The notes under the pieces were generated by a model that had not been told where the DNA came from, searched no databases, and saw nothing but the letters and a program-made list of their open reading frames with translations. Below are positions 3,001-56,063 of a stretch of DNA of 64,000 nucleotides, in pieces. A program made the position numbers and the translations under genes. Within the stretch, counting starts at the first letter, position 1. Every line of letters begins with the position of its first letter. Origin of the DNA: a virus; IMG/VR virus record IMGVR_UViG_3300021197_000933, positions 2,670 through 66,669 of that record, one strand, 5' to 3'.

Positions 3001-6000
3001 AACGCCCGGCACGCACAGTTACATCAGCACCGAGAGACTTGACCCACCCACCGACCTTCTCAAAGTCTTCCGCATCGAGGTCACGTCGGAGAATGTGGCC
3101 CATCTCATGAATCAGAGTAGTGAAGTTAGGCTGCTCGAGCGCGTAGATAATGGCCTTACCATCTTCCAAGAACTCAGTAGCACCCTTGGCCAGGTCGTCA
3201 CCGGTACCCCCCTCAAAGTCCCGGCCAGTCTGATACAGAACGCGCGGGTCGGTCGGGTCATAGGTGCCGATGTTAAACGGAGACTTGATTTGTTCGCTTT
3301 TGAATGGAATGTAAACATCACTGACAATGTCGCTTGCGGGGTCATCCTTCACATTCTTGAAGATTACGCCATCGTGACCAGCACGACGGGCTTTAGCAAA
3401 CTCACCGGCTATGTCATCAATGCTTGAATCGAGCGGGGTAAAAAACGCCGTGGGGTCAAACTCGATAACCCGTGGATTTTTTATACTCAGGTACATAGGC
3501 ATGACATTTGCACCAGAAGTTATGGTGCGGGAGCCTCCTGTATCCGGGGAGATGTCGACTCCCCTACGTCGAGCCTCTTTGAACTCTCTCCCCCCGTATG
3601 ATTCCGCGTATGTGCTTGCGACTTCGGGGCGACTCGTAAAGTAAAAACCCTCTGCTGAGTCTACGTCACGAGTGGCCTCACTAAGAAACTTCTTATCAAA
3701 CGCGTCAAAGTCACCAGTAGTCCCGTGGTAAACCACCAACGGCTCACCCGCCTCATCGACTACCTTGGAGTCACCAAACCACGTCTTGAACTCAGGCGTG
3801 TCGGTCTTAGCGGCGACGGGCTCGGCTGCTTTCTTAAGCGAGTCAGCCTCAGCCACATACTGGCGTACCATAGCGCCGTCAGGAGCTCGAACCATCTTGC
3901 GAACAAGAGGAACGCCCTCAGAGATCAAACGCTCATAGACAGCAACCGCATCTCTACTGGGAGAAACATCACTGGCAAAGCCAAAGCCCTTATCACGAGC
4001 GTACTCCAAGGCGTTTCGATAAAGGTCAGCGCCAACACCACGTCCCCTCAGCTCCTCAGGAATGCTTACAGCATCAACAGAAAGCGCACCGTCCACAACC
4101 CTAAAGGTAAGGCCCTCACCGCCAGCTGCGCGAACAGCATCAGTGGTCAGCTCTACCAGACCCTCACCGATCTCCTTGAACTCAACCCCAAGCTGACGCT
4201 GTACACCCTGGAAGAATACCTCTGCGCCTTCACCTGTCGCGTCTAGCTGGTCACGGGCTAATGCCGGGGTAAGTCGCTCGGTGGAAGGTCGGGACCGACT
4301 GAGTCCAAGTTTACGACTTTCTTCTGGCTGTCGTACGCTGATTCGTAGAGTAACTCCATAATCTTCTCGGGCGGCAAGCTCGATAAGTCGTCGGTTGGCT
4401 TCTTCGGTGTAGGCGACTGCCCAGTCTCGGTTTGTAAACCCTGTTTTGTCTTTGGCTGCTTGGATTCTGGCACGGTTTGCTTTCCTTCTTGAGGGTCCGA
4501 GTACAAAACTACCGACGTCTTGCTTCCAAGCCCCGGTTTTTGCGAAGCTAGCGTTTCTTATTCTACCAGACTGGTCTAAGCTGTCAACTAGATCGTCGGT
4601 CATGTTGAGCTTGGTATTGATAGCTAACTCGCCCCAGCCGTCAGGGGCTTCGATTTTAATCATCGTTCCGTCAGGCCAAACAACACGCATCTCGTTGAGG
4701 TTGTTGTACGGCATAAACCCTAAGTCAGCTGTGCCGCCTGAGAACCAAGAGTAGTTCGGGTGGTTATGCGTAAACTGGGTGAACTTACCTAAAGAAAGTA
4801 CCCTAAACTCATCCGCCGTGAACGGTACTGACTTCTTAGTTCCCTTCGATCGGAAGAAAGAAACACCGTCAACCCAACCCGCACCATACTCAAAGTTGTA
4901 GCCGCCAATGGCCTGATCGACTGAGTCGACGTCCATACCAATGTTGATAGGCCCCACTTGGAGCGCGTGACCAATCTCTGTGTCTTCAGCTGAGCGTACG
5001 ATGACGCCATCATCGACTAACTTTTGAAGCGCGGTGCCCGTCACACTTGATAGATCGTCTCCCTCAGAGACAGCCTTACCGGTAGCTTCGTCGATTATCT
5101 TCCAGCTCTGGGGCTCTTCTACCAGAAAGCCCAGCTCTTCCAGTTCATCCAAGGCTTCTTGTATTCGCTGAGGGGGAGGTCTGCCAAGTGCACCATGTAG
5201 AAATGTAGGGTCTATTTTCCAGTCGCCGTAATCACTCCCATGTTTAGGTAGCTTGCCACGGAATAACCCTGGTCTTGCTCTACCGCTTATCAGAGAATAG
5301 ACAAGCTCTATCTCTTCGTCAGAAAAGAGCCGATTACCTGATTTGTCAACGTAATCCTCAAGACCTGCTGCCCTATTGCGCAACCCGTATTCTGGGGCAT
5401 CGTACTTTTTAGCCAGTATCTTGACGAGTTTACCCCTGATCAACTGCGGGTTGCCGACAAGCCTGGCTACTGTCCCACCTACACCGGCAAGTCTGTAGCC
5501 CGCAGGAAGCGCTGCTTGTGCTTGGTAGGCGGGGTGGTAAATATTAGAGAACACATTTCCTGAGTTCTCGAATCCAAACTTCGTAGCAAAGTCGCTCTTA
5601 GACTGGATACCCTCAAGCCGAGACTGCCACCATTGCTCCTTGGGTCGCTTAGTCTTCTGGTGCCATCTGTCAGCGGCTAAGTCAAAGATGCGAGCAGCGT
5701 CAATCGCCTCATCCTTACTTACACCGAAGAACTTAATCGCCTGATCCATAAAGCTGATGCCTTCGTCAGACAGCTCTTGGATCTCCTTGACCTTAGCCAC
5801 AGCCTCAGCAATGATCGGTGAGCTCTTTACACCCATCTCTCCGTGAATCAGAGATCGATCGAACGCATGAGCAATCGCACGGGACTCAATGTTAGTCTTG
5901 ATGGCCTCTTCGGCACGATCTACAAGCTTAGCCATTGTCTCAAAGTCACCGGCTTCCTCGATAGCTTCGCGTGCCACTACCAGCATCGTATCGGTCAGGC

Positions 6001-8119
6001 CAACGTCGTCGGCTGAACCATAGACGCTGTCGAATAGTTTCTTGCCGTCTTCACCCAAGCCTGAAAGAGCTTGGTCGGCGGCTTTTCGTACATTTTTTAC
6101 CCAGTCCACAGGGTGACGCGCCAGAAGTGTGTAGTCTTCCAACGCTTTTGACACGGCACGTGCCGCATCAGGCGAAAGCTTTCTTATGTCGTCCGTGAGC
6201 TCGATCAGAACTCGCGCAGGGTTACCCTCTCCGACCATGGCTTTACGTACGAAGCGAGCGTAGATGGCGCTGTCTTTGGCGTTGATAAGAGCACGCATCT
6301 TACCTACTTCGTCGAGCTGGTCACCGTAGTTGTAGACGCGACGGTACTCAATACCAGCAGCCTCTTGGAAGCTACCTTCTTTGACATTAGCGCCACCCTG
6401 TCGAGCCTGCCTACGGCGAACTGAGGGGTGAAGGTTCATGCGCTCATCACCAAGACGACCAGGAAGGCTGTCAGCCAGCTTGTTACCCTCCTTAGTCGCC
6501 AAGATATCCGGGTTGTCTCTACCGAGCCGTCGAGCCGCGTCAAAGTCAGACTGGTCGACTCGATCCATCGCGACCCCTGCCTTTTGGCGTATTTCAGCAG
6601 CAGCCTCCCCGCCTTCAGCGAGAACCTTTTTCTCTGCGGGAGTGATAACGGAAGGCGCTAACGCATCTATCTGATCAGCAATCGCGATGCCCTCATCTAC
6701 CAACGAGCCGTCACCTCGAGCAAGACCCTCAGCCAGTTTCGTCGCCGCCTGCTCGTGTAAGTCAGCAATCTGAGTCAGCTTTTTTGCGTTAACAAACTTA
6801 CCCAGTCGTATAGCTCCCTGCTTGTACGCACTGGCAGCGCCAAAGGTCAAGTCGGGCATAAGCACCGACCCTAAGAATCCAGCAAAGCCCAAGCTGACTT
6901 TAGCTGCCGTATTCGTGCTGGCTAAGTCTGAGTCAACTGCCGCCTCGAATAGGTTCCTGCGCTTAGCCACACCACGCAGCATTCTCTGACCCAGATCCGC
7001 ATGGTCCTCAGTAAATGCCCCCACGAGGGCTGACTGAATCAAGTCGTTGATCTCAAAGCCCCATTGGAGACTTCCCTGGGATCTGAGAATAGGCTTGCTG
7101 TCTCTATCCAGACCTACAATCTCTACCGTGGGTAAGAACGCCTCGCCCCAGCTGACGTCATCCTTAGGCTTGCCGTCTTCACCCACAGACCCTGGGTCAC
7201 GGTATCGAACAAACGCGGGTGCCGTCCACATCCCGATTGTCTTCCACGTTGCAATCTCTTTTTTCGCCCGTGACGACGCTCGTGTGTACGCTTCTTCGTA
7301 CCGAGAATGGTCGCGTGTAATCCCCATGTCTTTGAGAATGTTCTCTGCACGTTTCGGGACGTACTGCTCTGCGCCCTGCTCCGCGTCTTTGTACTTGTCG
7401 CGTAGCTCAATCATCCGCATCATGCGCTTGTCGCCCTTCTTGGCAAGCTCTTCAAACGCGCTGTTAAGCGCCACCAACTCGCTATGCTGGCGGTCCCCAG
7501 GCTGCGTCATGTTCTTGACGTCTTCAGAGTCAGTACCGAAGAACCCTGCGACACTCTCTGTGTCAACCTTAGAATCCTCGTTCGGCAACAGTAGCTCAAG
7601 AGGGGTCTCTCCCGTCTTCTCTACGGTGCGGCCAATCTTAGCCTGAGCTCGGGCCTTGCCCAGCTGCATGATAGTTTCGCCACGTAAGGCAGTCTCACGC
7701 TGCTTCTCAGTCGTACCCGCAAGTGTGCGTGACTTAAGGCCCTCTATAATCTCGACTCTATCCTTACCCTCTCTCAGCTCAGAGAGGATCTTAGAAGGCT
7801 CGACCTGGAGCGTGTCAAGTTGCTTACCAAACTCTTCCTTAGTAAGACCTGATCGCTTACCATATCTGTCGATTGCTTTATCAAGAGTTTGTTTATCGAA
7901 AGACGGATCCGATCTGGTGCTGTGCGATTCTATATCGATCGAGCGGACGAAGTCACCTACGTCTAAGTCTCCGACCATGTAGGGGTCGGTCATCTTCTTT
8001 ACGACTGACGGGTCTAACTTCTTCAAGTACTTCGCGGGTATCTTAGCTTCCTGCGGCGCCTCAACCTCTTCGGCATCTGACGTCTTTTGATCAGCTGGAT
8101 TAGGTGTAGGCTCAGCCAT
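1..8119 (-). CDS. Giant (>2,700 aa, 3'-truncated) polyvalent/internal virion protein with JAB, ART-PolyVal-like and zincin metallopeptidase domains
   Basis: ATG at 8119 (MAEPTPNPADQ). Hand-translated segments at 7.6-8.1 kb, 4.2-5.0 kb, 3.0-3.8 kb and 2-40 are all in one open frame. It is absent from the ORF track, which fits an ORF with no stop inside the window. Motifs: THNHPNYSWFSGGTAD, FKTWFGDSKVVDEAGEPLVVYHGT..GFYFT, LIHEMGH..EEFFAEAF. Confidence 0.9.
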   Translation of the reverse strand, partial: MAEPTPNPADQKTSDAEEVEAPQEAKIPAKYLKKLDPSVVKKMTDPYMVGDLDVGDFVRSIDIESHSTRSDPSFDKQTLDKAIDRYGKRSGLTKEEFGKQLDTLQVEPSKILSELREGKDRVEIIEGLKSRTLAGTTEKQRETALRGETIMQLGKARAQAKIGRTVEKTGETPLELLLPNEDSKVDTESVAGFFGTDSEDVKNMTQPGDRQHSELVALNSAFEELAKKGDKRMMRMIELRDKYKDAEQGAEQYVPKRAENILKDMGITRDHSRYEEAYTRASSRAKKEIATWKTIGMWTAPAFVRYRDPGSVGEDGKPKDDVSWGEAFLPTVEIVGLDRDSKPILRSQGSLQWGFEINDLIQSALVGAFTEDHADLGQRMLRGVAKRRNLFEAAVDSDLASTNTAAKVSLGFAGFLGSVLMPDLTFGAASAYKQGAIRLGKFVNAKKLTQIADLHEQAATKLAEGLARGDGSLVDEGIAIADQIDALAPSVITPAEKKVLAEGGEAAAEIRQKAGVAMDRVDQSDFDAARRLGRDNPDILATKEGNKLADSLPGRLGDERMNLHPSVRRRQARQGGANVKEGSFQEAAGIEYRRVYNYGDQLDEVGKMRALINAKDSAIYARFVRKAMVGEGNPARVLIELTDDIRKLSPDAARAVSKALEDYTLLARHPVDWVKNVRKAADQALSGLGEDGKKLFDSVYGSADDVGLTDTMLVVAREAIEEAGDFETMAKLVDRAEEAIKTNIESRAIAHAFDRSLIHGEMGVKSSPIIAEAVAKVKEIQELSDEGISFMDQAIKFFGVSKDEAIDAARIFDLAADRWHQKTKRPKEQWWQSRLEGIQSKSDFATKFGFENSGNVFSNIYHPAYQAQAALPAGYRLAGVGGTVARLVGNPQLIRGKLVKILAKKYDAPEYGLRNRAAGLEDYVDKSGNRLFSDEEIELVYSLISGRARPGLFRGKLPKHGSDYGDWKIDPTFLHGALGRPPPQRIQEALDELEELGFLVEEPQSWKIIDEATGKAVSEGDDLSSVTGTALQKLVDDGVIVRSAEDTEIGHALQVGPINIGMDVDSVDQAIGGYNFEYGAGWVDGVSFFRSKGTKKSVPFTADEFRVLSLGKFTQFTHNHPNYSWFSGGTADLGFMPYNNLNEMRVVWPDGTMIKIEAPDGWGELAINTKLNMTDDLVDSLDQSGRIRNASFAKTGAWKQDVGSFVLGPSRRKANRARIQAAKDKTGFTNRDWAVAYTEEANRRLIELAAREDYGVTLRISVRQPEESRKLGLSRSRPSTERLTPALARDQLDATGEGAEVFFQGVQRQLGVEFKEIGEGLVELTTDAVRAAGGEGLTFRVVDGALSVDAVSIPEELRGRGVGADLYRNALEYARDKGFGFASDVSPSRDAVAVYERLISEGVPLVRKMVRAPDGAMVRQYVAEADSLKKAAEPVAAKTDTPEFKTWFGDSKVVDEAGEPLVVYHGTTGDFDAFDKKFLSEATRDVDSAEGFYFTSRPEVASTYAESYGGREFKEARRRGVDISPDTGGSRTITSGANVMPMYLSIKNPRVIEFDPTAFFTPLDSSIDDIAGEFAKARRAGHDGVIFKNVKDDPASDIVSDVYIPFKSEQIKSPFNIGTYDPTDPRVLYQTGRDFEGGTGDDLAKGATEFLEDGKAIIYALEQPNFTTLIHEMGHILRRDLDAEDFEKVGGWVKSLGADVTVRAGRFIGEPDEVRKAEEFFAEAFEQYIKDGDPPVDDLRSAFESMKQFMTQAIRYLSPSAKVTPEMKQVFDNLLVVAQPDEPLLPRITRMLKKTLVGPDDDTFNLIKSISEEARRLGIDGADYETLIKQFEDTGSIKLEGSVFSEYGSLGGSEFSSQDLVDLGNKMRADIALASISYGAGAATTSFNNAVRGLSPSQRVEQLLRGDGASNRIRAIVKSSFIGGDVVLEKGLQGLHPVIRNSIETATRQVKQGTAESIRLVGEATTPEGTANLLDFLTGKNVTYVKGGRDVLTSGHDSATSVFSQINKFFSTMSQNNPNMQHLIDLVQHTADGGSLEAFSFGNVVTAGKEGSKVDAEVAFNSVFRSTSAPEFLRAMLEAVAPGTAKMDNPVPKDWVQFTETVLYHMGHSRRGGEKFAGSARAQLEGLIGDVTELYDRASAMRIAVLIGTHGHADRARKLWSQLGLAVDKDTYVNMVKWVNGEDIPSEAVPAVKKLVSRFGMSESFVEDELLGGSFYIPKSARDNLSQTLARGIDPDVVSAEDNIKGIQGAILRYNKLRMTRGGIMLRQRYFLMNTIDHFAQMAMINGFQPAVASTLRLATQDVMVLPGLARAIDTLTRAKVLEPDAAEKLRKTLQKGGDQLADWFAKSKYHIKVNPILEGEKGFFRVGGNVYSHKEIRDVAVQEGIFASFDTTQLTNSVQRAGRSMIDTNTQAIKAQGGSMSRAKDFAESANDFLTQVVADTSEAWGERERLGAMISLMETGMEPRVAARFTIDALYDYAGSMTKMDRHWLVSLALPFWAFQKNANRQFFDTLFSPAGVYRMGVIRRGTSRGADALTEIMWSSVSDEFGVDTDALQESGPDGLYQDYMKLKDEIYNQYGSNVPKDVRVGMNMWLRGRQMDVVQGSRYEFDSAVGKKLFSRSTAPFSEFVRPLPSKSERASYLRPRDGVLIPFSLKEKATRDYYSAIRAASKSGGDPHGYTEVFFPDSTINAGMRHMANMVAFYTLA
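4258..4473 (-). CDS. Possible nested out-of-frame small protein (71 aa) inside the giant ORF
   Basis: GTG at 4473 preceded by AAGAAGGAAAG. Protein-like sequence DDLSSLPPEKIMELLYESAY. Lies directly after the JAB domain. Confidence 0.35.
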   Translation of the reverse strand: MPESKQPKTKQGLQTETGQSPTPKKPTDDLSSLPPEKIMELLYESAYDSQKKVVNLDSVGPDLPPSDLPRH

Positions 8120-45148: not shown

Positions 45149-45384
45149 TGCCGCTGGATTCTACTAAACGGTACTGCAAATCGTGCGGTGACCGTAAACG
45201 ATTGACGTGGCCGAAAGGCGATCCCGTGTGCTGCACCATGACCTGTGCGGCTAATAAGTTTCTGATCTATGACGCAACTGCGAGCAATGAATGGGACGGG
45301 TCACACTGCACAAACTGTGGATCGTTGGAAGAACACTACGTCGGAGACTGGTGCGACCACGAAGTCGATGAAGGAGAAGAGTGA
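45145..45384 (+). CDS. Small Cys-rich cassette gene
   Basis: CxxC motifs; junction repeats. Confidence 0.7.
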   Translation: MMPLDSTKRYCKSCGDRKRLTWPKGDPVCCTMTCAANKFLIYDATASNEWDGSHCTNCGSLEEHYVGDWCDHEVDEGEE

Positions 45385-45950
45385 TGTACCAAACCATACT
45401 GATGGACCCGCCATGGTACGAGACTGGCGGGGGTAGAATCAAGCGCGGAGCTGACCGGCACTACCCGCTGGTCAAGACTCCTGACCTACCTCGAGTGATC
45501 ATGCAGGCGCCCACCTGGAAGCCAGCTCGTGACTGCCACTTGTACATGTGGGCTACTGCGAACCACTTGGCTGATGCGATCTGGCTCATGGGTGCGCTGG
45601 GCTTCAAGTACAAGACCAACGTCGTGTGGACCAAGGAAGGTCGGAAGGGCCTGGGTCAGTATTTCCGTGGTCAACATGAGCTCCTGCTCTTTGGAGTCAG
45701 GGGCAAGGGCTACAACGTGAGGACCGACGACAAGACGATTGGCTCGTGGATTCACGCGCCCAGAGGTAAGCACAGCCATAAGCCTACTGAGTTCTATGAG
45801 CTGATTGAGGCTCGCAGCGAGGGTCCGTACCTTGAGATGTTCGCCCGCTCTGAACGAGAAGGCTGGAGTTCTTGGGGCGATGAGGTGACACCGTCATCAC
45901 AAGTTAGTACCCTGATTGTAAACGCACAAAACCAATGGAGTCAGACATGA
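45381..45950 (+). CDS. MT-A70 family N6-adenine methyltransferase
   Basis: DPPW, LYMW, GLGQYFRGQHE, HSHKP, LEMFAR. Confidence 0.92.
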   Translation: MMYQTILMDPPWYETGGGRIKRGADRHYPLVKTPDLPRVIMQAPTWKPARDCHLYMWATANHLADAIWLMGALGFKYKTNVVWTKEGRKGLGQYFRGQHELLLFGVRGKGYNVRTDDKTIGSWIHAPRGKHSHKPTEFYELIEARSEGPYLEMFARSEREGWSSWGDEVTPSSQVSTLIVNAQNQWSQT

Positions 45951-46323: not shown

Positions 46324-46527
46324 ATGGAGTTCGCAATCTCATGGACAATGGCAAGCGGCAAGCCCACCTACGAGGGTAGGTGCGTAGACTGTAACTGCCT
46401 GATCGGCCCTTGGTTCTCATTGAAAGCTGCCAAGAAGGGTATGACATCGCACCACAAACGGTGCGACGCCTGCCACCACAAACACGTATTCAGTCCCCCA
46501 GGCAAGTCTCCATCGCTTCACGACTGA
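46324..46527 (+). CDS. Small Zn-finger-like protein
   Basis: CxxC..HH..CxxC; GAGG SD. Confidence 0.55.
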   Translation: MEFAISWTMASGKPTYEGRCVDCNCLIGPWFSLKAAKKGMTSHHKRCDACHHKHVFSPPGKSPSLHD

Positions 46528-48598
46528 TGCAATAGCAGCGCATGATGGCACCCTCGATACGAACAGGGCGACTGCGCCGACTCTTACCGTCTGGGCTAAC
46601 GACAATCCAATTGCGTTCAGCCCAGCGGTTTAGTATCTCAGCTGGGTGATGGCCTAAGTTCTTCAGTACCTCTCTCATTGTGAGCGTAGTGATCTGAATC
46701 TCTGCCCAGTCTTGGTCCTTGCTCCATCGACCCGCCCACCCGTGCATGGGTACGCGAGTGTGACCATGGCCCGACATCTCGTGCCTACCGTGGAACCGGA
46801 CAGCGTTAGCTGCGCACCACGAGAGCATGTCTTGGAATGCAGCGAGCGGACGGTCAGCGTCACGACCCGCAGCTTCTTGGCACTCGATGAGGAAGGCGAA
46901 TGGGTCCTCTTGGCAGGGAGTCATACCAAGCTGCATAGTGATTCCCGCAGCTATCTCCAGTGCTGCCAAGTGAGCAGCGTGCCTACGCGCCACAGCACTG
47001 GTCGCAATGTGAGCGTACTTGTCACGTGCTTCCTTGTACACAGCTCTGATCTCATCATGCCTTGGCTGGTTGGCTACAAGATACTCGATGACTCTGCGAC
47101 CGAGGTGGCCATGGTTGTTGGCCAAGATGGCCTGCGTTTCTTCGCTGACCTGGCCGCCGATGTCTGGGTTAGATCCGAGCGGCTTACCCTTGAGCGATAG
47201 CACTCGAGCTCGAGTACCTGCGTCTTCACTGAAGTCGGTAGCTGCACCTTCACCTGTACTGATGAGGATGGACTGCCATGAGTCAGTGTAGCGGGTACCC
47301 TCGACGGCACCACGACCACGACCTTGACCTTGGCAGAAGTCGTAGATGACATCGCGCACGATCCCGTTGTGCTTCGCTCTCTTGGTCTCGTCGAGAAGTA
47401 GCGGGAGGTTCTGTAGGTACCCAGCTGTGCGCTCGATCCATACCTTGGTAGCGTCCCACGAGTACATAGCCGTCGGGTAGTTCTCACTCGGCTTGCCCCA
47501 CACTGACGCAGCAAAGCGCAGTGCCGTAGTCTTTCCACCACTGGTCTCACCACTGAAGTCAACCACGAACCCAGGCAACCTGAGTAGCTTCATCAGTGGT
47601 GCAGCTACACTGGCGTAGATGGCCACGTGCATGTGCGGGTAAGGACTCACGAGAGACGCAGCCTCAAGCCAGCCCTCCCACGTACCAGTCATCATCCAGC
47701 CTTTCGACATAGACTCGAAGCCGGCAGGGGGTGTCAGCACCAGCTGCTCATCGGACTCGTCAGCTGTAGCGTAGTAGCTCTCCGGCAGGAGGAACCCACC
47801 GCCGGGCTGCCAGCCCATGCGTGGAGTAGACCTGAGTGACGATAGCCGGTGCCTGTTCTCAGCTTCAAAGTCCGCCAAGTAAGACACGAGGTTAGCCAAG
47901 TTCATGCTGCTGACGGGTGCTTCCAGGTCAGCCAGACCAATGAGCTTACTCGTATCCATCAGGGTACGGCGCGACACCACCCGGCTACACCAGCCGGCAG
48001 GGCCTCTCCAGATAGCCTGTAGCTTCGCTTCGCCAGTCAGTACGTCGCTGGTCCTGCCCGCAATAAAGAAGGGAGCAGCAGCGATCCTCGTGCGAACAAG
48101 GTCACCTTCAGGAGAAGCCGAAAGCCGGTAGACACCAGCAGCATCAATAGCAAAGCCGCGAGGAGGTACCAGTAAGGCAAGGATGTCGGGAGACACGATC
48201 GTTGCAGGAGGCCCAGCGTTAGCAAAGCAGGCGCTCAACGTCAGGTTGTTCGAGAGGTTCTCTTCAATCTCATCCAGCAAGTCGTCTGATCGACGACGCA
48301 CCAGCGAGTCAGAGAGGTTCCGTATCGCAGACTTGAGGTTGCGCGAGCGTGTCCGCTGCCCTCGAATAGATCCTATTGTGATCAGGAGTGTTTCAACAGT
48401 GTCGTTATCTGACTGCCAGCTCTCTGCGAGGCTGGTCATTACGTTAGGATCTTGAATGCTGATCCATGCTGCACGTTGTGCAGACGAGTCACCCTCTCTG
48501 AGGGATGCAAGAAGTCTATTCAGTATGTCGATTCCGGGGCTCTGCTGCTGCGCTGCTGACCCGGTTGATCGTTCTTCAACCGAGTTGTCATTGTCCAT
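46490..48598 (-). CDS. DUF927 (Cch-like) replicative helicase
   Basis: Walker A GETSGGKTT, LPLLLDE, GQGRGRG, ISTGE, GTRARV, NHGHLG. Confidence 0.88.
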   Translation of the reverse strand: MDNDNSVEERSTGSAAQQQSPGIDILNRLLASLREGDSSAQRAAWISIQDPNVMTSLAESWQSDNDTVETLLITIGSIRGQRTRSRNLKSAIRNLSDSLVRRRSDDLLDEIEENLSNNLTLSACFANAGPPATIVSPDILALLVPPRGFAIDAAGVYRLSASPEGDLVRTRIAAAPFFIAGRTSDVLTGEAKLQAIWRGPAGWCSRVVSRRTLMDTSKLIGLADLEAPVSSMNLANLVSYLADFEAENRHRLSSLRSTPRMGWQPGGGFLLPESYYATADESDEQLVLTPPAGFESMSKGWMMTGTWEGWLEAASLVSPYPHMHVAIYASVAAPLMKLLRLPGFVVDFSGETSGGKTTALRFAASVWGKPSENYPTAMYSWDATKVWIERTAGYLQNLPLLLDETKRAKHNGIVRDVIYDFCQGQGRGRGAVEGTRYTDSWQSILISTGEGAATDFSEDAGTRARVLSLKGKPLGSNPDIGGQVSEETQAILANNHGHLGRRVIEYLVANQPRHDEIRAVYKEARDKYAHIATSAVARRHAAHLAALEIAAGITMQLGMTPCQEDPFAFLIECQEAAGRDADRPLAAFQDMLSWCAANAVRFHGRHEMSGHGHTRVPMHGWAGRWSKDQDWAEIQITTLTMREVLKNLGHHPAEILNRWAERNWIVVSPDGKSRRSRPVRIEGAIMRCYCISREAMETCLGD

Positions 48599-51112: not shown

Positions 51113-51544
51113 TCACTCAGCGACTGTAAGTGTCACCCAAGAAGTCCAATCGTCTGATTCTTTAGCTGCTAAGCCAGTTATAGACTTGAACGATTCTGAC
51201 TCAGGGCACCAGGCAAAGACATGCTTCTTCGCATCGAGGAACCACTCCAGCAGTTGGGCAGTAGCCTTACCTACAGAGAGGGACTCTTGAGTAAAGTCAA
51301 CGGGTACAATGATTCCGTGGAACAAGTGACCACCTGTGTAAGACTTACCCACTGCGACATCGCGACACCAAGCAGCCCAGCCTCCGAGTGCGGCTGCACG
51401 TGACTTGTAATCGTCGCGCCCTGCAACCACCTCAGCCTGCCAAACGTCATCCGTCATGTGGCCTGCGAGCTGGGCACACCAGCGGTCAATGTCTTCGTCC
51501 TCGTCTTTCTTAGAGTGGGCGAGAAACCAACGAGACTTGTTCAT
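51113..51544 (-). CDS. Small Rossmannoid protein, TIR or nucleoside-deoxyribosyltransferase-like
   Basis: WFLAHSKKD first strand; VGKATAQLLEWFLDAKKHVFAW helix-strand. Confidence 0.5.
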   Translation of the reverse strand: MNKSRWFLAHSKKDEDEDIDRWCAQLAGHMTDDVWQAEVVAGRDDYKSRAAALGGWAAWCRDVAVGKSYTGGHLFHGIIVPVDFTQESLSVGKATAQLLEWFLDAKKHVFAWCPESESFKSITGLAAKESDDWTSWVTLTVAE

Positions 51545-54289
51545 CTATACGTCCTTCAATGTTCTACCGACGTCAGCCTCTGCGGTCATCGCAACAGGCC
51601 ATCCGGGTATCTTGATTGTCATTGCTTCTTCCATTGTGCGCTTCATCTTCTCTATCTCAGGGGGAAGGGGCTCACCCTTGACGGGTGCCCACATAGGATC
51701 AAAGCCCTTGGGCAGCGGAGCCTGTACACAGATAGAGTCATGGCATTGATGAATCATGCCCGTACCTGGTCCGGCATACTCGAACGGAAAGGCGTCTCTT
51801 ACTTGAGCTTCAGCCAACCGCATGGTTGATCCCTCGGCTGCAAGGATAGGAAAGTTCACTACCTCTTGAAGCTTGCCGTCACTGAGAGGCCCACTGCGCC
51901 TACCCATGATGGGCTCCGCCATGTAGCCCTGCCTCTCGTATACCTTCTTCATCGTGGCCCAAGCGCTCTCCCACTCAGGCTCACTGGTCTTCCACGTCTC
52001 GTGCATGACTCGTACTTCTCTAAGTGTCATGCCCACATACGGCAGCTTGGCATCGTCAGTCTCTGTTGATGTCAGTACCTGCCAAACTGTAGCGGGGTCG
52101 GCTGCATATGCTGATGCGTATCTAAGTGTCTTACACACGTCACGCATAGACTTAGCGTCACCACCAGGAGGCTTGCTGTATAGGCTGAAGCCGTCGTCAC
52201 CCCAGCCACTTGCCTGCTCGAATCGATCACCGAATACGTTGTGAGCCAGCGTGTTGTGGGGATCCTTACCTTCCTCGAAGCACTCCATCAGTAGAGGTAT
52301 CTTCCAGTAGTTAGCGATGATCCGTAGGTGTGCCTGGTCAAGGTCAGCACCGATGAGGATGTAGCCTGGGGGAGCTGCGAAGATTGTCTTCAGTGGCCCT
52401 TGGCCTTTACGGTTACCGATGTTCTGTAGGTTGGGTCCAGAGCATGAGAGGCGCGCGACGCTGGTGACATGGGCATTCCATGATGGCCTCACCCTGCCGT
52501 CTTCCCAGACCACACCCTTCTTAGGGTCGATGTCTCTGCGGTTGAGAGGTATCAGCACCGTACCGAGGATCTTATTCTTCTCTCTGCGATACAGCCTGAG
52601 CTCACGGATGAATGCCTCTTGTTCCTCTGATAGGTTCCCACTTGCAATGTGAGCGCGCAACACAGAGTCACCTGTACCAGGTGCGCCTGTGTCAGTGTAG
52701 AAGTCTTTAGCGTCCATCTGAGGAGGGATACCGAGCTTCCACTTACTGTAGAACAGGTCTCTGATCTGATCGTAGCTGCCGGGGTTGATGCCTGAAGCGA
52801 AGTCGTCGAGTCGTTTAGCTCTCTGCTTTACGGACAAAGTAAACCGAGCCTCTAAGTCAAACCGCTTCTTCTGGTCGACCCATACACCATTCTTGTGCAT
52901 CTCAACACACATCACTTGGGTCTCGTGGTCGACCTCGTTGAGATTCCACGGCCTCTCTATCGGCCAAGAGTCAGGCTTGATGTTGTCTTTGATGGGGTTG
53001 AAGGCACCTGCATTAGTCGCCGCCTTTATTAGGGGAAGCGTGATCCTTGCGTTTACTACTGTGTCAATGATGTTGTATCTAAGAAGCTCGTCATCATCCG
53101 TACTACCTGTAGCGATACTCGAACCCTTCTCAGTTGTCTCCCATCGTTCAACGTCGGTGAGGATAGACCCGATAGTCTTTAGTCCCTTCGGTAAGTCAGG
53201 AGCTCTGAACCGAGCTGGGAAGAGCGTGTCTACCAGCGGGTAGGGGTTCACACCTAAGTGGTTCTCGATCACCATCCGGTCATAGCTACCAGCGTTGTGA
53301 CCCACCCACACACGACCGTCAGTAAAAGCAGCGCGCAGTATATCTTTGATGCGCCACTCCTCTCCCTGCGTGTAAAAGCGTGTACGCCCATCAGCACTCA
53401 GCAAACTAATGCCCACTGCCTGAGAGTTCTTCACAGGGTTCTTCGCCGTCACACGTCCGCGCTCATCCAAGTCAGGGGTAGCGATAGCTATCGTGCGGAG
53501 CTTGCACTCCATGGGCTCAATGCCATCAGTCTCTACATCGTAAGCCCAGAAAGGAGAGGGCTGCTTCAGCCATTCCTCCAGCTCCTGAGGAGAGGGTCGC
53601 CACAAAGAATCGGGCTGAGTCCAGTCGAGCGTGTCCGAGAACCAGCGGAAAGCTTTACCCATGTCAGCGTGCAAGACGTGACGCCAACTGGGCGAGCGTA
53701 AAATAAACGACGGGTGCAGCGTAGGTAGCAAGCGGTGAGCCGTCTCATCGTCCTCGTTAGTCACGCCCCAGTCTTCAGTGATCCGCATAGGACCACCTCT
53801 GGTTGAGTGGATGCTGCTACCGACACCAGTCAGCGAGTTAGTCGCGAGCTTACCGAGCGTAACAATAGAAGGGTAGCGTGAGGCAACGTTCAGCAGCCGA
53901 GGCCGGCAGCACGTAAGAGGGTGAGGTACTGCCTCTTGCCCTGCCTTCACACGCTTGCGATTGAGCTTGTCTACAGCTTTGTCCAAGCGACGCAGAGCTC
54001 CTGAGGCTTGACCTGGTAGGTGACATGCGATCACATGGTCGAGGTCTACATCGGTTCGGCGGTGACCACACGCAGCTAATGCTCGGTTCCACTCACCACC
54101 TGACCTACCCACTAAAGCTCTACCATGCTGAACTTCTTCAGGGTCAGGGCTCTCAGCTACAGCGAGGACGGTTGCACCCTTGTGCACCTCACACCCCACT
54201 GGCTTCCAGTCATCTTTACGGAGAGCTCCCTTAGGACCCAACGGGCACACATCGCATCGTGCTCCAAGTGTTGTCGGGTCAAAGGGCAT
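51545..54289 (-). CDS. polA: DNA polymerase family A with N-terminal family-4 UDG-like domain and 3'-5' exonuclease
   Basis: UDG: CDVCPL, AESPDPEE, LHPSFILR. Exo: DVETDG, GHNAGSYD, YNIID. Pol: RLSCSGPNLQN, ADLDQAHLR, RDVCKTLRYASAY, CHDS. Confidence 0.93.
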   Translation of the reverse strand: MPFDPTTLGARCDVCPLGPKGALRKDDWKPVGCEVHKGATVLAVAESPDPEEVQHGRALVGRSGGEWNRALAACGHRRTDVDLDHVIACHLPGQASGALRRLDKAVDKLNRKRVKAGQEAVPHPLTCCRPRLLNVASRYPSIVTLGKLATNSLTGVGSSIHSTRGGPMRITEDWGVTNEDDETAHRLLPTLHPSFILRSPSWRHVLHADMGKAFRWFSDTLDWTQPDSLWRPSPQELEEWLKQPSPFWAYDVETDGIEPMECKLRTIAIATPDLDERGRVTAKNPVKNSQAVGISLLSADGRTRFYTQGEEWRIKDILRAAFTDGRVWVGHNAGSYDRMVIENHLGVNPYPLVDTLFPARFRAPDLPKGLKTIGSILTDVERWETTEKGSSIATGSTDDDELLRYNIIDTVVNARITLPLIKAATNAGAFNPIKDNIKPDSWPIERPWNLNEVDHETQVMCVEMHKNGVWVDQKKRFDLEARFTLSVKQRAKRLDDFASGINPGSYDQIRDLFYSKWKLGIPPQMDAKDFYTDTGAPGTGDSVLRAHIASGNLSEEQEAFIRELRLYRREKNKILGTVLIPLNRRDIDPKKGVVWEDGRVRPSWNAHVTSVARLSCSGPNLQNIGNRKGQGPLKTIFAAPPGYILIGADLDQAHLRIIANYWKIPLLMECFEEGKDPHNTLAHNVFGDRFEQASGWGDDGFSLYSKPPGGDAKSMRDVCKTLRYASAYAADPATVWQVLTSTETDDAKLPYVGMTLREVRVMHETWKTSEPEWESAWATMKKVYERQGYMAEPIMGRRSGPLSDGKLQEVVNFPILAAEGSTMRLAEAQVRDAFPFEYAGPGTGMIHQCHDSICVQAPLPKGFDPMWAPVKGEPLPPEIEKMKRTMEEAMTIKIPGWPVAMTAEADVGRTLKDV

Positions 54290-54433: not shown

Positions 54434-55015
54434 CTAGCTGACGATACCTTGCGCCACGCTTGGGGCAGGCGGAAGGACAGCGCCAGTGGAGGGTGCAACT
54501 CCGTTAGTCACTGCAGGTGGTACAGGGGCGCTTGTAGCGGTCTGAACCGGTGCACCAGAGTCTTTACGAGCTTCGTAAGTAGACTTGTTAAGCCAGCCCT
54601 TGATCTCGTTGTAAGAACCTTGGACACCCTTCTGACCAGGAACAAACTCAACGTAGCCCTTACGACCGTGGTTGCTGGAGTGGATGAACCACTCGTCGGT
54701 CACGTTACCTGAGTCAAGAGTTTCACCATCGTATCCAAGAGACTCGAGGATAGTGCGCAGGTTAGCAAGCTGACCACGCAGTTGGTTCTCATTAAGACCC
54801 GCGAGCTGGTTACCGTTGTCGTCGTAGGGCAAGTTTACGAATGCGAACATTGTAAACCCGTCGTCGAACTGAAGGTGGAAGCGACGCTTACCAGGCTTGT
54901 CGTTAGGGTGAGTCTCGATCTTTACGATAGAGACGGGGTAGAATCCAGCGTCAGGTGCGCCAGCTCCGAAACTACGGACGCCCTTGAAGGCCCCCGGAGG
55001 GATGTTGATAGCCAT
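54434..55015 (-). CDS. Putative single-stranded DNA-binding protein (DUF669-like)
   Basis: PDAGFYPVSI..YNEIKGW with a Pro-rich tail; follows the AAA gene. Confidence 0.65.
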   Translation of the reverse strand: MAINIPPGAFKGVRSFGAGAPDAGFYPVSIVKIETHPNDKPGKRRFHLQFDDGFTMFAFVNLPYDDNGNQLAGLNENQLRGQLANLRTILESLGYDGETLDSGNVTDEWFIHSSNHGRKGYVEFVPGQKGVQGSYNEIKGWLNKSTYEARKDSGAPVQTATSAPVPPAVTNGVAPSTGAVLPPAPSVAQGIVS

Positions 55016-55079
55016 GATAGGCTCCATTGTTGTTGTTGTATGGTGGACGCGAGGTCCGAGGTCCAGACGACGGATGCCG

Positions 55080-56063
55080 TCAGGAAGAGGGAGGTGGTGG
55101 TGGTAATGACGCACTCGAAGTAGTCGGTGCATCAGGTTCAGGCTCAAAGTTGAATAGGCTTCGGGACTGCTGTTTAGCAAGTACCCCTCTTGCAATACCA
55201 TCTTGGCAAGCCCAGCGCAAGTGAAGGGTGTCATAATCGTACCCAGATATGGCGCTGTCAATCGCTTCTATCACAGGTACGTCTTGCATTATAGCATCAG
55301 CTACACGATCTGCAACTTCATCCTGCCACTCTAAGCCACTAACTCTACCGAGATGGTAGTTGGACTTACTCGCCCGAAGTATCTCACGTAAGTTACCGGG
55401 CGTCTTTTTAGCGCAGACTCCAGTACGATCCCCAGTAATCCACTCAGGATCAGTAGGGTCACAGTAGTACGCACCTGGAAACCACGGGTCAGGGTATGAC
55501 GGATCAATCATGGCGCGTACGTTGATGTCACACCAAGAGGGTAGAGTCTTCACTTGGTTACGTGATGGAACGTCAGGACCACCAGGGCAGAAGTGACCGT
55601 CTGCATTAGAACCTGGCATCCTCTCGTGGAAGTTCATAGCCATGTGCACGCCCAAGTGACGAGCTAATCCTGCGAGCTCAAGCAAGTGGCGGTCCAGCTG
55701 CTGGTACTGATAGAACTTATCCTTACGACCGGAGCGGCCCATAGGTGCTTCTTCCATCCACTTAAGCATAGACATCTTACAGAGATGGCTGGCATCGTCG
55801 ATAACAACAGCCCCGCACTGAGACTCCAAGTCGGTCTCGCTGAGCTCCCTGAGCAGTGCGATTAAATCAGGTAAAGTCTGTGGTGGGTCTGCATAGACTG
55901 ACGGAGTGAACCCCAGCTCGTTCTGCGCGACTAAGCACAGGGCTGAGGGCACACCAATAAACAGTGCATTAGGAAACGCAGCGAGCATGTCGCTGGTCTT
56001 CCGTTTCTTCGGTTGCCCATAGACCGTAATCATAACGGTAGGCAACCCATCTTCATGGGTCAT
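55080..56063 (-). CDS. AAA_24/Sak4-like ATPase
   Basis: VYGQPKKRKT, VVIDDAS, NFHE; start ATG 56063. Confidence 0.75.
   Translation of the reverse strand: MTHEDGLPTVMITVYGQPKKRKTSDMLAAFPNALFIGVPSALCLVAQNELGFTPSVYADPPQTLPDLIALLRELSETDLESQCGAVVIDDASHLCKMSMLKWMEEAPMGRSGRKDKFYQYQQLDRHLLELAGLARHLGVHMAMNFHERMPGSNADGHFCPGGPDVPSRNQVKTLPSWCDINVRAMIDPSYPDPWFPGAYYCDPTDPEWITGDRTGVCAKKTPGNLREILRASKSNYHLGRVSGLEWQDEVADRVADAIMQDVPVIEAIDSAISGYDYDTLHLRWACQDGIARGVLAKQQSRSLFNFEPEPDAPTTSSASLPPPPPSS

What the first reader, a model, noticed from the sequence alone, without database searches (positions are those of the whole stretch)
51545..52480. PolA with His at the steric gate and other non-canonical active-site residues
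Seen: motif A reads DLDQAHLR (CAC codon checked) against canonical DYSQIELR, so the near-invariant Glu (E. coli E710, the rNTP steric gate) is His. Motif B is RDVCKTLRYASAYA (Tyr762 type, Arg at 761, both Gly to Ala). The region matching NAPMQGTAAD reads NFPILAAEGS (Q849 to L, D854 to S), and TGRLSS reads VARLSC. The catalytic Asps and all three exonuclease motifs are intact. Established: E710 excludes ribonucleotides and Q849 contacts the minor groove. Inference: altered sugar or base specificity, for example modified DNA, rNTP use or self-priming.
Basis: partly seen in the sequence, partly recalled or inferred. Interest (0 to 1): 0.75.

Follow-up and report, generated by a model that had tools for sequence, protein, structure and literature searches.

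The report
Phage DNA polymerase with histidine sugar-gate
The DNA polymerase of this uncultured marine phage has replaced four normally fixed residues beside the incoming nucleotide as one linked set, including histidine for the glutamate that keeps RNA building blocks out. The same swap recurs in separate branches of a large group of uncultured phages, and its effect on the enzyme has never been measured.

Summary
Window 51545-54289 (-) encodes a 914-aa UDG-like/3'-5' exonuclease/family A polymerase, and His654 (CAC) aligns with Klenow Glu710.

The His is not a lone change. It belongs to a linked set: T666V, E710H, Q849L and A852E (here V611, H654, L816, E819). This set separates 69 His-type from 75 Glu-type rows among the 144 cluster representatives kept, with no mixed state.

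On trees built without these columns, the set appears in at least two and probably four separate lineages (AU tests p 0.0001-0.007). A test on the C-terminal part alone is not significant (p 0.085).

All seven cultured-phage PolAs I checked keep Glu. The catalytic Asps, Arg668, Asn845, Lys758, Tyr766 and the exonuclease motifs are intact. Of 34 natural SNPs, 30 are synonymous.

No nucleotide-modification gene was found in 68 ORFs, and the DNA assembles from ordinary shotgun libraries.

This scan found the same linked set earlier in other genomes. I found no description of it in print.

The parts
51545..54289 (-). Gene for the 914-aa UDG-like / 3'-5' exonuclease / family A DNA polymerase (P0001)
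   Evidence: ORF list and translation. Pfam PF00476 scores 84.8 bits against a cut-off of 34.3. PF03167 scores 29.5 against 24.3. PHROG 17 'DNA polymerase', E 3.3e-64. AlphaFold2 model: pLDDT 93.9, pTM 0.90. Foldseek best match is Klenow 1kfs/8oo6, TM-score on target 0.79-0.80.
53645..54289 (-). N-terminal family-4 UDG-like domain (about residues 1-215). Four conserved Cys (C12, C15, C89, C128), motif A AESPD (usual GEAPG), motif B HPS (H192).
   Evidence: Pfam PF03167 on residues 38-201. PDB sequence hits to family-4 UDGs 1l9g, 1vk2 and 1ui0. Residue tables by class. C89 and C128 are invariant; C12 and C15 are nearly invariant.
53000..53587 (-). 3'-5' exonuclease domain (about residues 235-430) with Exo I D251/E253, Exo II N332/D337 and Exo III Y405/D409
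   Evidence: Pfam PF01612 on residues 235-379, E 0.0016, which is below its cut-off. D251, E253, D337, Y405 and D409 are invariant in 101 aligned sequences, and the by-class table agrees.
51548..52942 (-). Polymerase domain (about residues 450-914)
   Evidence: Pfam PF00476 on residues 481-858. Klenow alignment over residues 458-691. Foldseek matches.
52457..52459 (-). Val611 (GTC), at the Thr of the TGR motif (Klenow T666). Member of the linked set.
   Evidence: Codon. His-type rows have V/P/I and Glu-type rows have T/S/G, with no overlap. The nested His lineages have V or M.
52328..52330 (-). His654 (CAC), at the steric-gate position (Klenow E710)
   Evidence: Codon. Alignment to Klenow. His in 120 of 120 close homologues. 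Among the 144 representatives kept: 69 His, 74 Glu, 1 Asp.
51842..51844 (-). Leu816 (CTT), at the minor-groove Gln (Klenow Q849)
   Evidence: Codon. Leu in 120 of 120. His-type rows have L64/I5; Glu-type rows have Q72/S1.
51833..51835 (-). Glu819 (GAG), one helix turn after Leu816 (Klenow A852). The relocated carboxylate.
   Evidence: Codon. Glu in 120 of 120. Glu in 69 of 69 His-type rows; G35/A33/C1 in Glu-type rows.
52343..52345 (-). Catalytic Asp649 of motif A (Klenow D705)
   Evidence: Codon. Invariant.
51734..51742 (-). Motif C, H850-D851-S852 (Klenow H881-D882-E883). The Asp is kept and Glu883 is Ser.
   Evidence: Codons. HDS in 120 of 120. Position 852 is S/A/Q in both classes, and N4 gp39 and Serbin read HDA, so this change is not part of the linked set.
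52103..52144 (-). Motif B, R716...K720...Y724...Y728 (Klenow R754, K758, F762, Y766)
   Evidence: R716, K720, Y724 and Y728 are present in 120 of 120. Tyr at the 762 position predominates in both classes.

Best explanation
This is the replicative DNA polymerase of an uncultured marine tailed phage with a genome of about 67 kb. It is one chain with three domains: a family-4 UDG-like domain, a proofreading exonuclease and a family A polymerase.

Its polymerase pocket uses a different, co-adapted arrangement of the residues that sit under the sugar and minor-groove edge of the incoming nucleotide and the primer-terminal base pair. In ordinary family A enzymes, Glu710, Asn845 and Gln849 hold a water that reads O2/N3 of the incoming base. 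Glu710 lies under C2' as the steric gate. Glu710, Gln849, Arg668 and Asp882 form one electrostatic cluster.

Here Glu710 is His654 and Gln849 is Leu816. A new Glu819 stands one turn further along the same helix, and the Thr of the TGR motif is Val611.

Inferred mechanism:
- The carboxylate has moved from the motif A strand to helix Q, where it can still balance Arg613 and orient His654.
- The His ring fills the place under the sugar, so ribonucleotides are still excluded.
- Leu816 and Val611 pack the floor where the Gln and Thr hydrogen bonds used to be. The direct Gln contact to the template minor groove is therefore lost.

The enzyme should still be a dNTP-using, template-dependent, proofreading polymerase. 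It may differ in mismatch extension or minor-groove checking.

Shown: the residues, their linkage, their recurrence and purifying selection. Inferred: the geometry and the retained dNTP selectivity.
For: **Identity and intact machinery.**
- Pfam, PHROG and PDB matches.
- AF2 model with pLDDT 93.9 and a Klenow-like fold.
- D649, D851, R613, N812, R716, K720 and Y728 are conserved in both classes.
- The exonuclease residues are invariant.

**Linkage.**
- Four columns separate His-type from Glu-type rows with zero overlap among 144 representatives of 50%-identity clusters. The 144 are what remained of the best 150 after I dropped 6 gappy rows.
- In 110 rows around a second lineage, 13 of 13 His rows have L/I plus Glu. 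Of the 97 Glu rows, 95 have Gln and none has the His set.

**Recurrence.**
- With the trait columns left out, a His trio sits inside the Glu clade as sister to a Glu row. Support is SH-like 100 by FastTree and SH-aLRT 99 under LG+C20.
- The AU test rejects a single His clade (p 0.0049).
- With more relatives there are three separate His lineages inside the Glu clade. AU tests against joining them give p 0.0003, 0.007 and 0.0001.
- The nested His rows keep their Glu-type neighbours' residues at positions 658, 667, 681, 773 and 799, which lie between the trait sites. This argues against one imported tract.

**Physical neighbourhood, from papers (passages read).**
- In KlenTaq ternary complexes a water bonded to E615, N750 and Q754 reads O2 of the incoming nucleotide, Q754 reads the template minor groove and R573 reads the primer (PMC6125688).
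- In Bst, Q797, R615, E658 and D830 lie close together and interact electrostatically (PMC10520511).

**Selection in nature.** Of 34 SNPs among contigs of four runs from four studies, 30 are synonymous and none falls in the four codons.

**Ordinary DNA.**
- None of 68 ORFs hits a nucleotide-modification family.
- Near-identical DNA is present in about 19 DNA runs of about 10 studies.
Against: - No biochemistry exists for any member, so retained dNTP selectivity is only an inference.
- I could not read coordinates of the model. The His654-Glu819 and Arg613-Glu819 contacts are therefore inferred from sequence spacing and from published canonical structures, not measured.
- The C-terminal part alone does not reject one origin of all His rows (AU p 0.085; starred branches force only one change). 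Spread by recombination of a small palm segment is not strictly excluded.
- The AU groups were named after I saw the trees, and those tests used LG+G4. The mixture-model AU test did not finish.
- Absence of Pfam hits does not exclude unknown modification enzymes, because many window ORFs have no family at all.
- Loss of the conserved Gln849 contact could equally mean a real change in checking, not a neutral re-packing.
Confidence: 0.65

Rival explanations
1. The rebuilt pocket changes substrate choice. The His/Leu/Glu set would let the polymerase accept or prefer a nucleotide or template with an altered minor-groove edge or sugar, as part of a phage DNA modification not yet recognised.
For: - The set removes the Gln that reads the template minor groove and the Glu that holds the water reading O2/N3 of the incoming base (PMC6125688 passages).
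- The set is fixed over very large phage groups and recurs, as expected if it confers a selectable property.
- Related UDG-PolA groups (SPO1-like, SP15-like) serve thymine-modified genomes (PMC13697223, section 15 read).
- Many window ORFs have no known family.
Against: - No thymidylate-synthase homologue, dUTPase, deaminase, PurZ-like or transferase family was found among 68 ORFs, or in the shared gene neighbourhood of 80 His-type and 80 Glu-type loci.
- His-type and Glu-type phages share the same replication module.
- The DNA is assembled from ordinary shotgun libraries in about 10 studies. The hypermodified phages YerA41 and RP13, by contrast, had to be sequenced through RNA-seq, as stated in PMC13697223.
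- Known natural base modifications are mostly in the major groove (recalled).
Confidence: 0.17
2. The sugar gate is loosened. The enzyme would incorporate ribonucleotides or start chains without a primer, making up for the lack of a recognisable primase.
For: - The steric-gate Glu is gone.
- The only 'primase/helicase' candidate (46490-48598) shows DUF927 plus a Cch HTH domain and no recognised primase domain.
- A paper title cited in PMC13697223 reports primer-independent synthesis by the YerA41 UDG-PolA (reference list seen only).
Against: - His is bulkier than Glu, and Tyr724/Tyr728, which assist sugar selection, are kept.
- Glu-type sister phages share the same module, so the missing primase is not specific to the His type.
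- The first 148 residues of the DUF927 protein and many unassigned ORFs could hide a primase.
Confidence: 0.07
3. The linked set arose once and spread by recombination of a short palm segment between co-infecting phages, rather than by repeated independent mutation. This is a rival for the evolutionary claim only.
For: On the C-terminal part alone (266 columns), a tree with all 18 His rows together is not rejected (delta lnL 31.9, p-AU 0.085). Starred branches there force only one change.
Against: - The maximum-likelihood tree of that same part still places the nested His rows among their Glu neighbours, needing 4 changes.
- The full-length tests reject joining (p 0.0049, 0.0003, 0.007, 0.0001).
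- Positions 658, 667, 681, 773 and 799, between the trait sites, keep the Glu-neighbour state in all six nested His rows. At least three separate micro-tracts would therefore be needed.
- Position 611 differs among lineages: V, M and P.
Confidence: 0.12
4. The gene is a decaying or non-catalytic polymerase relic.
For: Near-invariant residues (E710, Q849, E883) are replaced.
Against: - The catalytic Asps and dNTP-binding residues are conserved.
- It is the only polymerase family found in the window.
- 30 of 34 natural SNPs are synonymous.
- The set is conserved over 69 representative clusters.
- The E883 change is shared with N4 gp39.
Confidence: 0.02

Closest known systems
Bacterial DNA polymerase I large fragments (E. 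coli Klenow, KlenTaq, Bst BF)
   Same: - Same fold: Foldseek TM-score on target 0.79-0.82.
- Same catalytic Asps and same TGR arginine.
- Same motif B Lys/Tyr and same Asn845.
- Proofreading exonuclease motifs as in Klenow.
   Different: - Only 16-19% identity.
- T666V, E710H, Q849L and A852E as a linked set.
- E883 is Ser.
- An extra N-terminal UDG-like domain instead of a 5' nuclease.
N4-like UDG-PolA (cluster #17 of Czernecki et al. 2023, PMC10201439; type N4 gp39)
   Same: - N-terminal family-4 UDG-like domain fused to exonuclease and polymerase, about 860-915 aa.
- Motif C reads HD(A/S) rather than HDE.
- A similar replication gene set: helicase, exonuclease, Sak4-like protein and polymerase.
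   Different: - N4 gp39 keeps Glu at the gate: 'GLDFASLEDR'.
- The paper gives Phe at position B3 for the cluster, whereas this enzyme has Tyr.
- The paper says N4-like UDG domains lost their catalytic residues. Here the Glu of motif A, the His of HPS and four Cys remain.
- The family HMM matches N4 gp39 only over residues 505-708, at 52 bits.
SPO1-like and SP15-like UDG-PolAs of phages with thymine-modified DNA (PMC13697223)
   Same: UDG-exonuclease-polymerase architecture, with UDG motifs at least partly kept.
   Different: - No large inserts or C-terminal domain: 914 aa against 1306 aa for YerA41 as given in the paper.
- None of the 5hmU-pathway genes named in the paper was found in the window.
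- The paper's passage treats E710 as the steric gate for these enzymes. I did not see their sequences.
Glu-type sister clade of the same uncultured UDG-PolA superclade (for example P0200, P0314, P0157)
   Same: - 33-44% identity over the full length.
- Same three domains.
- Same gene neighbourhood: helicase, exonuclease, Sak4-like, polymerase, the 143-aa gene and the 671-aa gene.
- Also uncultured: no INPHARED record above 27% identity.
   Different: - The canonical T/S/G-E-Q-G/A set instead of V-H-L-E.
- UDG motif A is closer to GEAPG.
- The 275-aa gene upstream of the polymerase is detected in 79 of 80 His-type loci and 0 of 80 Glu-type loci.

Membership tests
Family A DNA polymerase (Pfam PF00476) | Profile match above the curated cut-off and a Klenow-like fold | tested here: met
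   84.8 bits against a cut-off of 34.3. Foldseek best match is Klenow, probability 1.00, TM-score on target 0.79-0.80.
Family A DNA polymerase (Pfam PF00476) | Catalytic Asp of motif A and Asp of motif C; motif B Arg/Lys/Tyr; Arg of the TGR motif | tested here: met
   D649, D851, R716, K720, Y728 and R613 are each present in 120 of 120 rows and conserved in both classes.
Family A DNA polymerase (Pfam PF00476) | Glu at the steric-gate position (position A2 of Czernecki et al.; Klenow E710) | tested here: not met
   His654. This near-universal feature is absent, while the catalytic features above are met.
Family A DNA polymerase (Pfam PF00476) | Gln of motif 6 reading the minor groove (Klenow Q849) | tested here: not met
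   Leu816 in 120 of 120 rows.
N4-like UDG-PolA (cluster #17, PMC10201439) | [quoted passage not shown] | tested here: met
   PF03167 scores 29.5 bits against a cut-off of 24.3, on residues 38-201.
N4-like UDG-PolA (cluster #17, PMC10201439) | UDG catalytic residues replaced or deleted | tested here: inconclusive
   The query has AESPD in place of GEAPG but keeps Glu46, His192 of HPS and four Cys. Other His-type rows have lost Glu or His: E29/Q13/D9, and His in 38 of 66 rows. Activity was not tested.
N4-like UDG-PolA (cluster #17, PMC10201439) | Phe at motif B position B3, and clustering with N4 gp39 | tested here: not met
   Tyr724 in 120 of 120 rows. The family HMM matches N4 gp39 over residues 505-708 only, at 52 bits. 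tblastn identities to all INPHARED records are at most 27%.
SP15-like / SPO1-like UDG-PolA (PMC13697223) | Large inserts 1 and 2 plus a C-terminal domain (SP15-like); genome with the 5hmU pathway and thymine modification | tested here: not met
   The chain is 914 aa, and the exonuclease and polymerase parts superpose on Klenow at TM-score 0.8. No thymidylate-synthase homologue, dUTPase or deaminase family among 68 ORFs. I made no direct sequence comparison with SPO1 or SP-15.
DpoZ (aminoadenine-incorporating PolA; NCBIfam NF038380, NF038381) | Profile match above the cut-off, and a purZ gene in the genome | tested here: not met
   32.2 bits against a cut-off of 500, and 20.6 against 350. No adenylosuccinate-synthetase family hit among 68 ORFs.

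The most novel reading that the evidence does not exclude
The V-H-L-E set is a second, naturally selected solution for nucleotide checking in family A polymerases, with measurably different behaviour. It might exclude ribonucleotides more strictly, tolerate or require an altered minor-groove edge, or show a different mismatch-extension rule. Phages would have switched to it repeatedly because it pays under some condition, such as a skewed nucleotide pool or a still unknown DNA modification. The pair of states, with almost no intermediates, would be a natural example of an epistatic switch in a textbook enzyme.
Probability: 0.2. Interest if true: 0.8.

Novelty: new variant of a known kind. Interest (0 to 1): 0.62.

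Why it matters
Glu710 and Gln849 are treated as fixed parts of family A polymerases in the texts I read. Czernecki et al. [quoted passage not shown]

This finding shows a large natural group of phage replicases that replaced both, together with two neighbours, more than once and with almost no mixed states.

That gives enzymologists a ready-made reciprocal swap experiment on how the sugar gate and the minor-groove check are built. It also gives polymerase engineers a new scaffold to try.

Finally, it warns annotators that His at this position does not mean a broken gene. If the set changes substrate choice, it could point to an unrecognised property of abundant marine phage DNA.

Tried and rejected
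**Model coordinates.** Structure prediction gave confidence values and secondary structure only, and no file reached the script box. I could not measure any His654-Glu819, Arg613-Glu819 or Leu816-Val611 distance.

**Gene context of the nested His lineage and its Glu sister.** An alignment of Glu-type rows then gave 80 Glu-type loci.

**Host hint.** The search for related loci in genome contigs failed twice for lack of a conserved stretch. A degenerate DNA pattern for the motif found 7 stretches. Only two are real relatives, both contigs of one MAG labelled Myxococcaceae and probably viral contigs binned there. The other five, including two Halomonas salifodinae records, show no similarity by tblastn. 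No host could be named.

**AU test with the mixture model.** On 51 rows it did not finish in three calls. I used fewer rows and LG+G4 instead.

**Expression.** No RNA holder was listed by the look-up of sequencing runs.

**Raw reads.** All runs were Logan contigs, so nothing can be said about base modification from read signal. Run X12 does not cover the His654 and Val611 codons.

**The giant ORF as an N4-type virion RNA polymerase.** There is no PHROG or Pfam hit for that. Instead it carries an ART-PolyVal domain. I dropped the N4-like phage idea at the level of the virion.

**The 143-aa gene after the polymerase.** No Pfam or PHROG family matched. The Atlas gave only TIR-like leads at 0.87-0.88, below the 0.9 lead line.

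**Papers.**
- Searches for the His variant listed no paper that describes it: steric gate / family A / histidine / phage / DNA polymerase, and E710H, E615H, E480H, E658H, Glu710His, Glu615His.
- The search Glu710 / Gln849 / Arg668 / Klenow found nothing.
- PMC9069017 has none of the terms.
- PMC19848 and PMC3040255 are not held.
- I read passages or named sections only, never figures or supplements. The motif logos of Fig. 3 and the supplementary alignments of PMC10201439 and PMC13697223 could bear on whether a His at A2 was ever shown.

**Rows dropped.**
- P0002, identical to the query, from the family alignment.
- 6 of 150 representatives with under 70% of the columns or a gap at position 654.
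- Long intein-bearing rows from alignment A1.


Full report
**What is there.** The minus strand of the window holds one ORF at 51545..54289 encoding 914 aa.

Family and fold matches:
- Pfam finds a family A polymerase domain (PF00476, residues 481-858, 84.8 bits against a cut-off of 34.3).
- It also finds a UDG-superfamily domain (PF03167, residues 38-201, 29.5 against 24.3).
- A 3'-5' exonuclease domain scores below its cut-off (PF01612, residues 235-379).
- PHROG 17 'DNA polymerase' matches at E 3.3e-64.
- All NCBIfam models, including the two DpoZ models, score far below their cut-offs.
- An AlphaFold2 model built on 101 aligned sequences has mean pLDDT 93.9 and pTM 0.90.
- Its best PDB matches are Klenow, Bst and Taq large fragments, with TM-score on the target about 0.8.

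The window is 64 kb of a 66,669-base virus record rated 94% complete. It carries a major head protein, large terminase, portal, helicase, exonuclease and a Sak4-like protein. It is therefore a tailed phage genome.

**The observation.**
- phmmer aligns 'adldqahlri' of the query with 'adysqielri' of Klenow, so His654 stands on Glu710. The codon is CAC at 52328-52330.
- Motif B keeps R716, K720, Y724 (the 762 position) and Y728.
- NFPILAAEGS puts Leu816 on Gln849.
- Motif C reads HDS.

In an alignment of the query with 119 homologues of 56-90% identity, the following are each present in 120 of 120 rows (the copy identical to the query was dropped):
- His654, Leu816 and Glu819
- R613 and D649
- H850-D851-S852

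By contrast, A612 and C616 of 'VARLSC' are minority states (6 and 17 of 120).

**The His is one of four linked changes.** A full HMMER scan of 1.84 billion cluster representatives found 11,440 proteins at E <= 0.001 and 470 at E <= 1e-30. The best 150 (34-65% identity) were returned.

Aligned to the family profile, these 150 split into rows with His and rows with Glu at position 654. I kept 144 rows after dropping 6 gappy ones: 69 His, 74 Glu and 1 Asp.

Four columns separate the two classes with no overlap:

| Query position | Klenow residue | Glu-type rows | His-type rows |
|---|---|---|---|
| 611 | T666, the Thr of TGR | T/S/G | V/P/I |
| 654 | E710 | E (one D) | H |
| 816 | Q849 | Q72, S1 | L64, I5 |
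| 819 | A852 | G35, A33, C1 | E in 69 of 69 |

The E883 position is S/A/Q in both classes, and N4 gp39 and phage Serbin read HDA there. That change is therefore ordinary for phage UDG-PolAs.

**The set recurs.** I built trees without the trait columns.
- A FastTree of the 144 rows puts the Glu rows in one clade (support 100). That clade contains a His trio (P0185, P0222, P0224) as sister to the Glu row P0200 (support 100).
- IQ-TREE with LG+C20 on 51 rows, with all four columns removed, gives the same picture (SH-aLRT 99 and 98).
- An AU test on 26 rows rejects a tree with all His rows together (delta lnL 54.5, p 0.0049).

I then collected 105 further relatives of P0222. Among the 110 rows tabulated:
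- 13 are His-type, all with L/I at 816 and Glu at 819.
- 97 are Glu-type. Of these, 95 have Gln, one has a gap, and one (P0415) has T-E-M-E, a possible intermediate.

A tree of 37 of these rows shows three separate His lineages inside the Glu clade. AU tests reject joining all seven His rows (p 0.0003), the five-row clade with P0321 (p 0.007), and the five-row clade with P0344 (p 0.0001). Counting the main His group, that makes four changes of state.

Caveats:
- The groups were named after the trees were seen.
- These AU tests used LG+G4. The mixture-model AU test did not finish.
- On the C-terminal 266 columns alone, the best tree still needs four changes, but well-supported branches force only one. 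The AU test there does not reject one His clade (p 0.085).

Against spread by one recombination tract: all six nested His rows keep their Glu neighbours' residues at positions 658, 667, 681, 773 and 799, which lie between the trait sites.

**Why these four.** Two papers, of which I read passages, describe the canonical arrangement.
- In KlenTaq ternary complexes, a water bonded to E615, N750 and Q754 reads O2 of the incoming nucleotide. Q754 reads the template base of the terminal pair and R573 reads the primer base (PMC6125688).
- A review of Bst polymerase states that Q797, R615, E658 and D830 lie close together and interact electrostatically. It also states that the incoming sugar sits above E658 (PMC10520511).

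These are the Klenow residues E710, N845, Q849, R668 and D882. The linked columns therefore belong to one known contact cluster.

My inference has three parts:
- The carboxylate has moved from the motif A strand to helix Q, three residues after the old Gln, where it can still pair with Arg613 and orient His654.
- The His ring takes the place under C2'.
- Leu816 and Val611 fill the space of the lost hydrogen-bond partners.

**Is it working, and is the DNA unusual?**
- The catalytic and dNTP-binding residues and the exonuclease motifs are conserved in both classes.
- Contigs of four runs from four studies show 34 differences across the gene. Of these, 30 are synonymous and none lies in the four codons.
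- No other polymerase family was found in the window.
- Among 68 ORFs scanned against Pfam, 15 families were hit. None is a thymidylate synthase, dUTPase, deaminase, PurZ-type or base-transferase family. The only DNA-modifying hit is an MT-A70 methyltransferase.
- Near-identical DNA is held by about 19 DNA runs of about 10 marine studies, so ordinary library methods read this genome.
- His-type and Glu-type phages share the same replication module.

I therefore read the enzyme as a normal replicative DNA polymerase with an alternative pocket (confidence 0.65). Altered specificity remains possible but unsupported.

**Comparison with what is known.**
- UDG-PolA fusions are described. The N4-like cluster #17 has a degenerate UDG domain and Phe at position B3. 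The SPO1-like and SP15-like enzymes have an active UDG domain and belong to thymine-modified phages (PMC10201439, passages; PMC13697223, section 15 and passages).
- This protein shares the architecture but not the defining details of any of them.
- No INPHARED record exceeds 27% identity to it or to two Glu-type relatives.
- N4 gp39 and Serbin keep Glu. So do the five cultured-phage polymerases whose motif A peptide is most like the query's: HJ05, Teagster, CPD4, Strzyga and CRP-125. That makes 7 of 7.
- My text searches found no paper describing a His at this position. I saw no figures or supplements.

**Earlier notes of this scan.** After reaching the linked-set result, I looked up earlier findings. 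At least eight follow-up notes on other genomes report the same His-containing linked set, and several say it arose more than once. They agree with my result and are not independent evidence.

**Verdict.** This is a new variant of a known kind of enzyme. It is of real interest to polymerase enzymology, but no function-level difference has been shown.

Noticed in passing
window 2-8119 (-), running off the window start: A giant ORF of more than 2706 aa. Its C-terminal half carries an ART-PolyVal domain (ADP-ribosyltransferase of polyvalent proteins, PF18760, E 4.7e-21). There is no PHROG or Pfam hit to an N4-type virion RNA polymerase.
   Followed up: partly
window 46490-48598 (-): The protein that PHROG names 'DNA primase/helicase' shows only DUF927 (residues 149-435) and a Cch HTH domain (residues 586-691) in Pfam. 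No TOPRIM or AEP primase domain was recognised anywhere among the ORFs scanned.
   Followed up: partly
window 51113-51544 (-): A 143-aa gene starts directly after the polymerase stop codon. It is detected in 64 of 80 His-type and 22 of 80 Glu-type loci. It has no Pfam or PHROG family. The Atlas gives only weak TIR-like leads at 0.87-0.88.
   Followed up: partly
window 54434-55261 (-): The 275-aa gene just upstream of the polymerase is found by tblastn in 79 of 80 His-type loci and 0 of 80 Glu-type loci. It has no family hit. Its position and its low-complexity tail suggest an SSB-like protein, but that is a guess.
   Followed up: no
protein P0415 (relative of P0222): This is the only row with a mixed state, T-E-M-E. 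Glu is kept at the gate, Met stands at the Q849 position, and the new Glu is already present at the A852 position. It is a possible intermediate of the switch.
   Followed up: no
P0001 residue 727 (window 52109-52111), Klenow I765: All eight Glu-type neighbours tabulated have Gln here. All six nested His rows and the main His rows have A/I/L/M. This may be a fifth, looser member of the linked set.
   Followed up: partly
homologues P0101, P0104, P0113, P0365, P0372, P0376, P0382 and others: Many relatives are 1200-2000 aa long and carry intein or homing-endonuclease families (PF14890, PF14528, PF13392, PF03161) inside the polymerase.
   Followed up: no
L164 and L169 (genome contigs): Two contigs (28.8 kb and 70.0 kb) of one MAG labelled Myxococcaceae encode His-type polymerases 57-62% identical to the query. 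They are probably phage contigs binned into the MAG.
   Followed up: partly
window 45381-45950 (+): An MT-A70 / DNA methyltransferase gene (PHROG 359, E 2.3e-50; Pfam PF05063). It is the only DNA-modifying function recognised in the window.
   Followed up: no
contigs of P0222, P0315, P0331, P0335, P0336: The nested His lineage and its Glu neighbours sit on contigs of 112-180 kb. This polymerase type therefore also serves much larger phages than the 65-75 kb group of the window.
   Followed up: no
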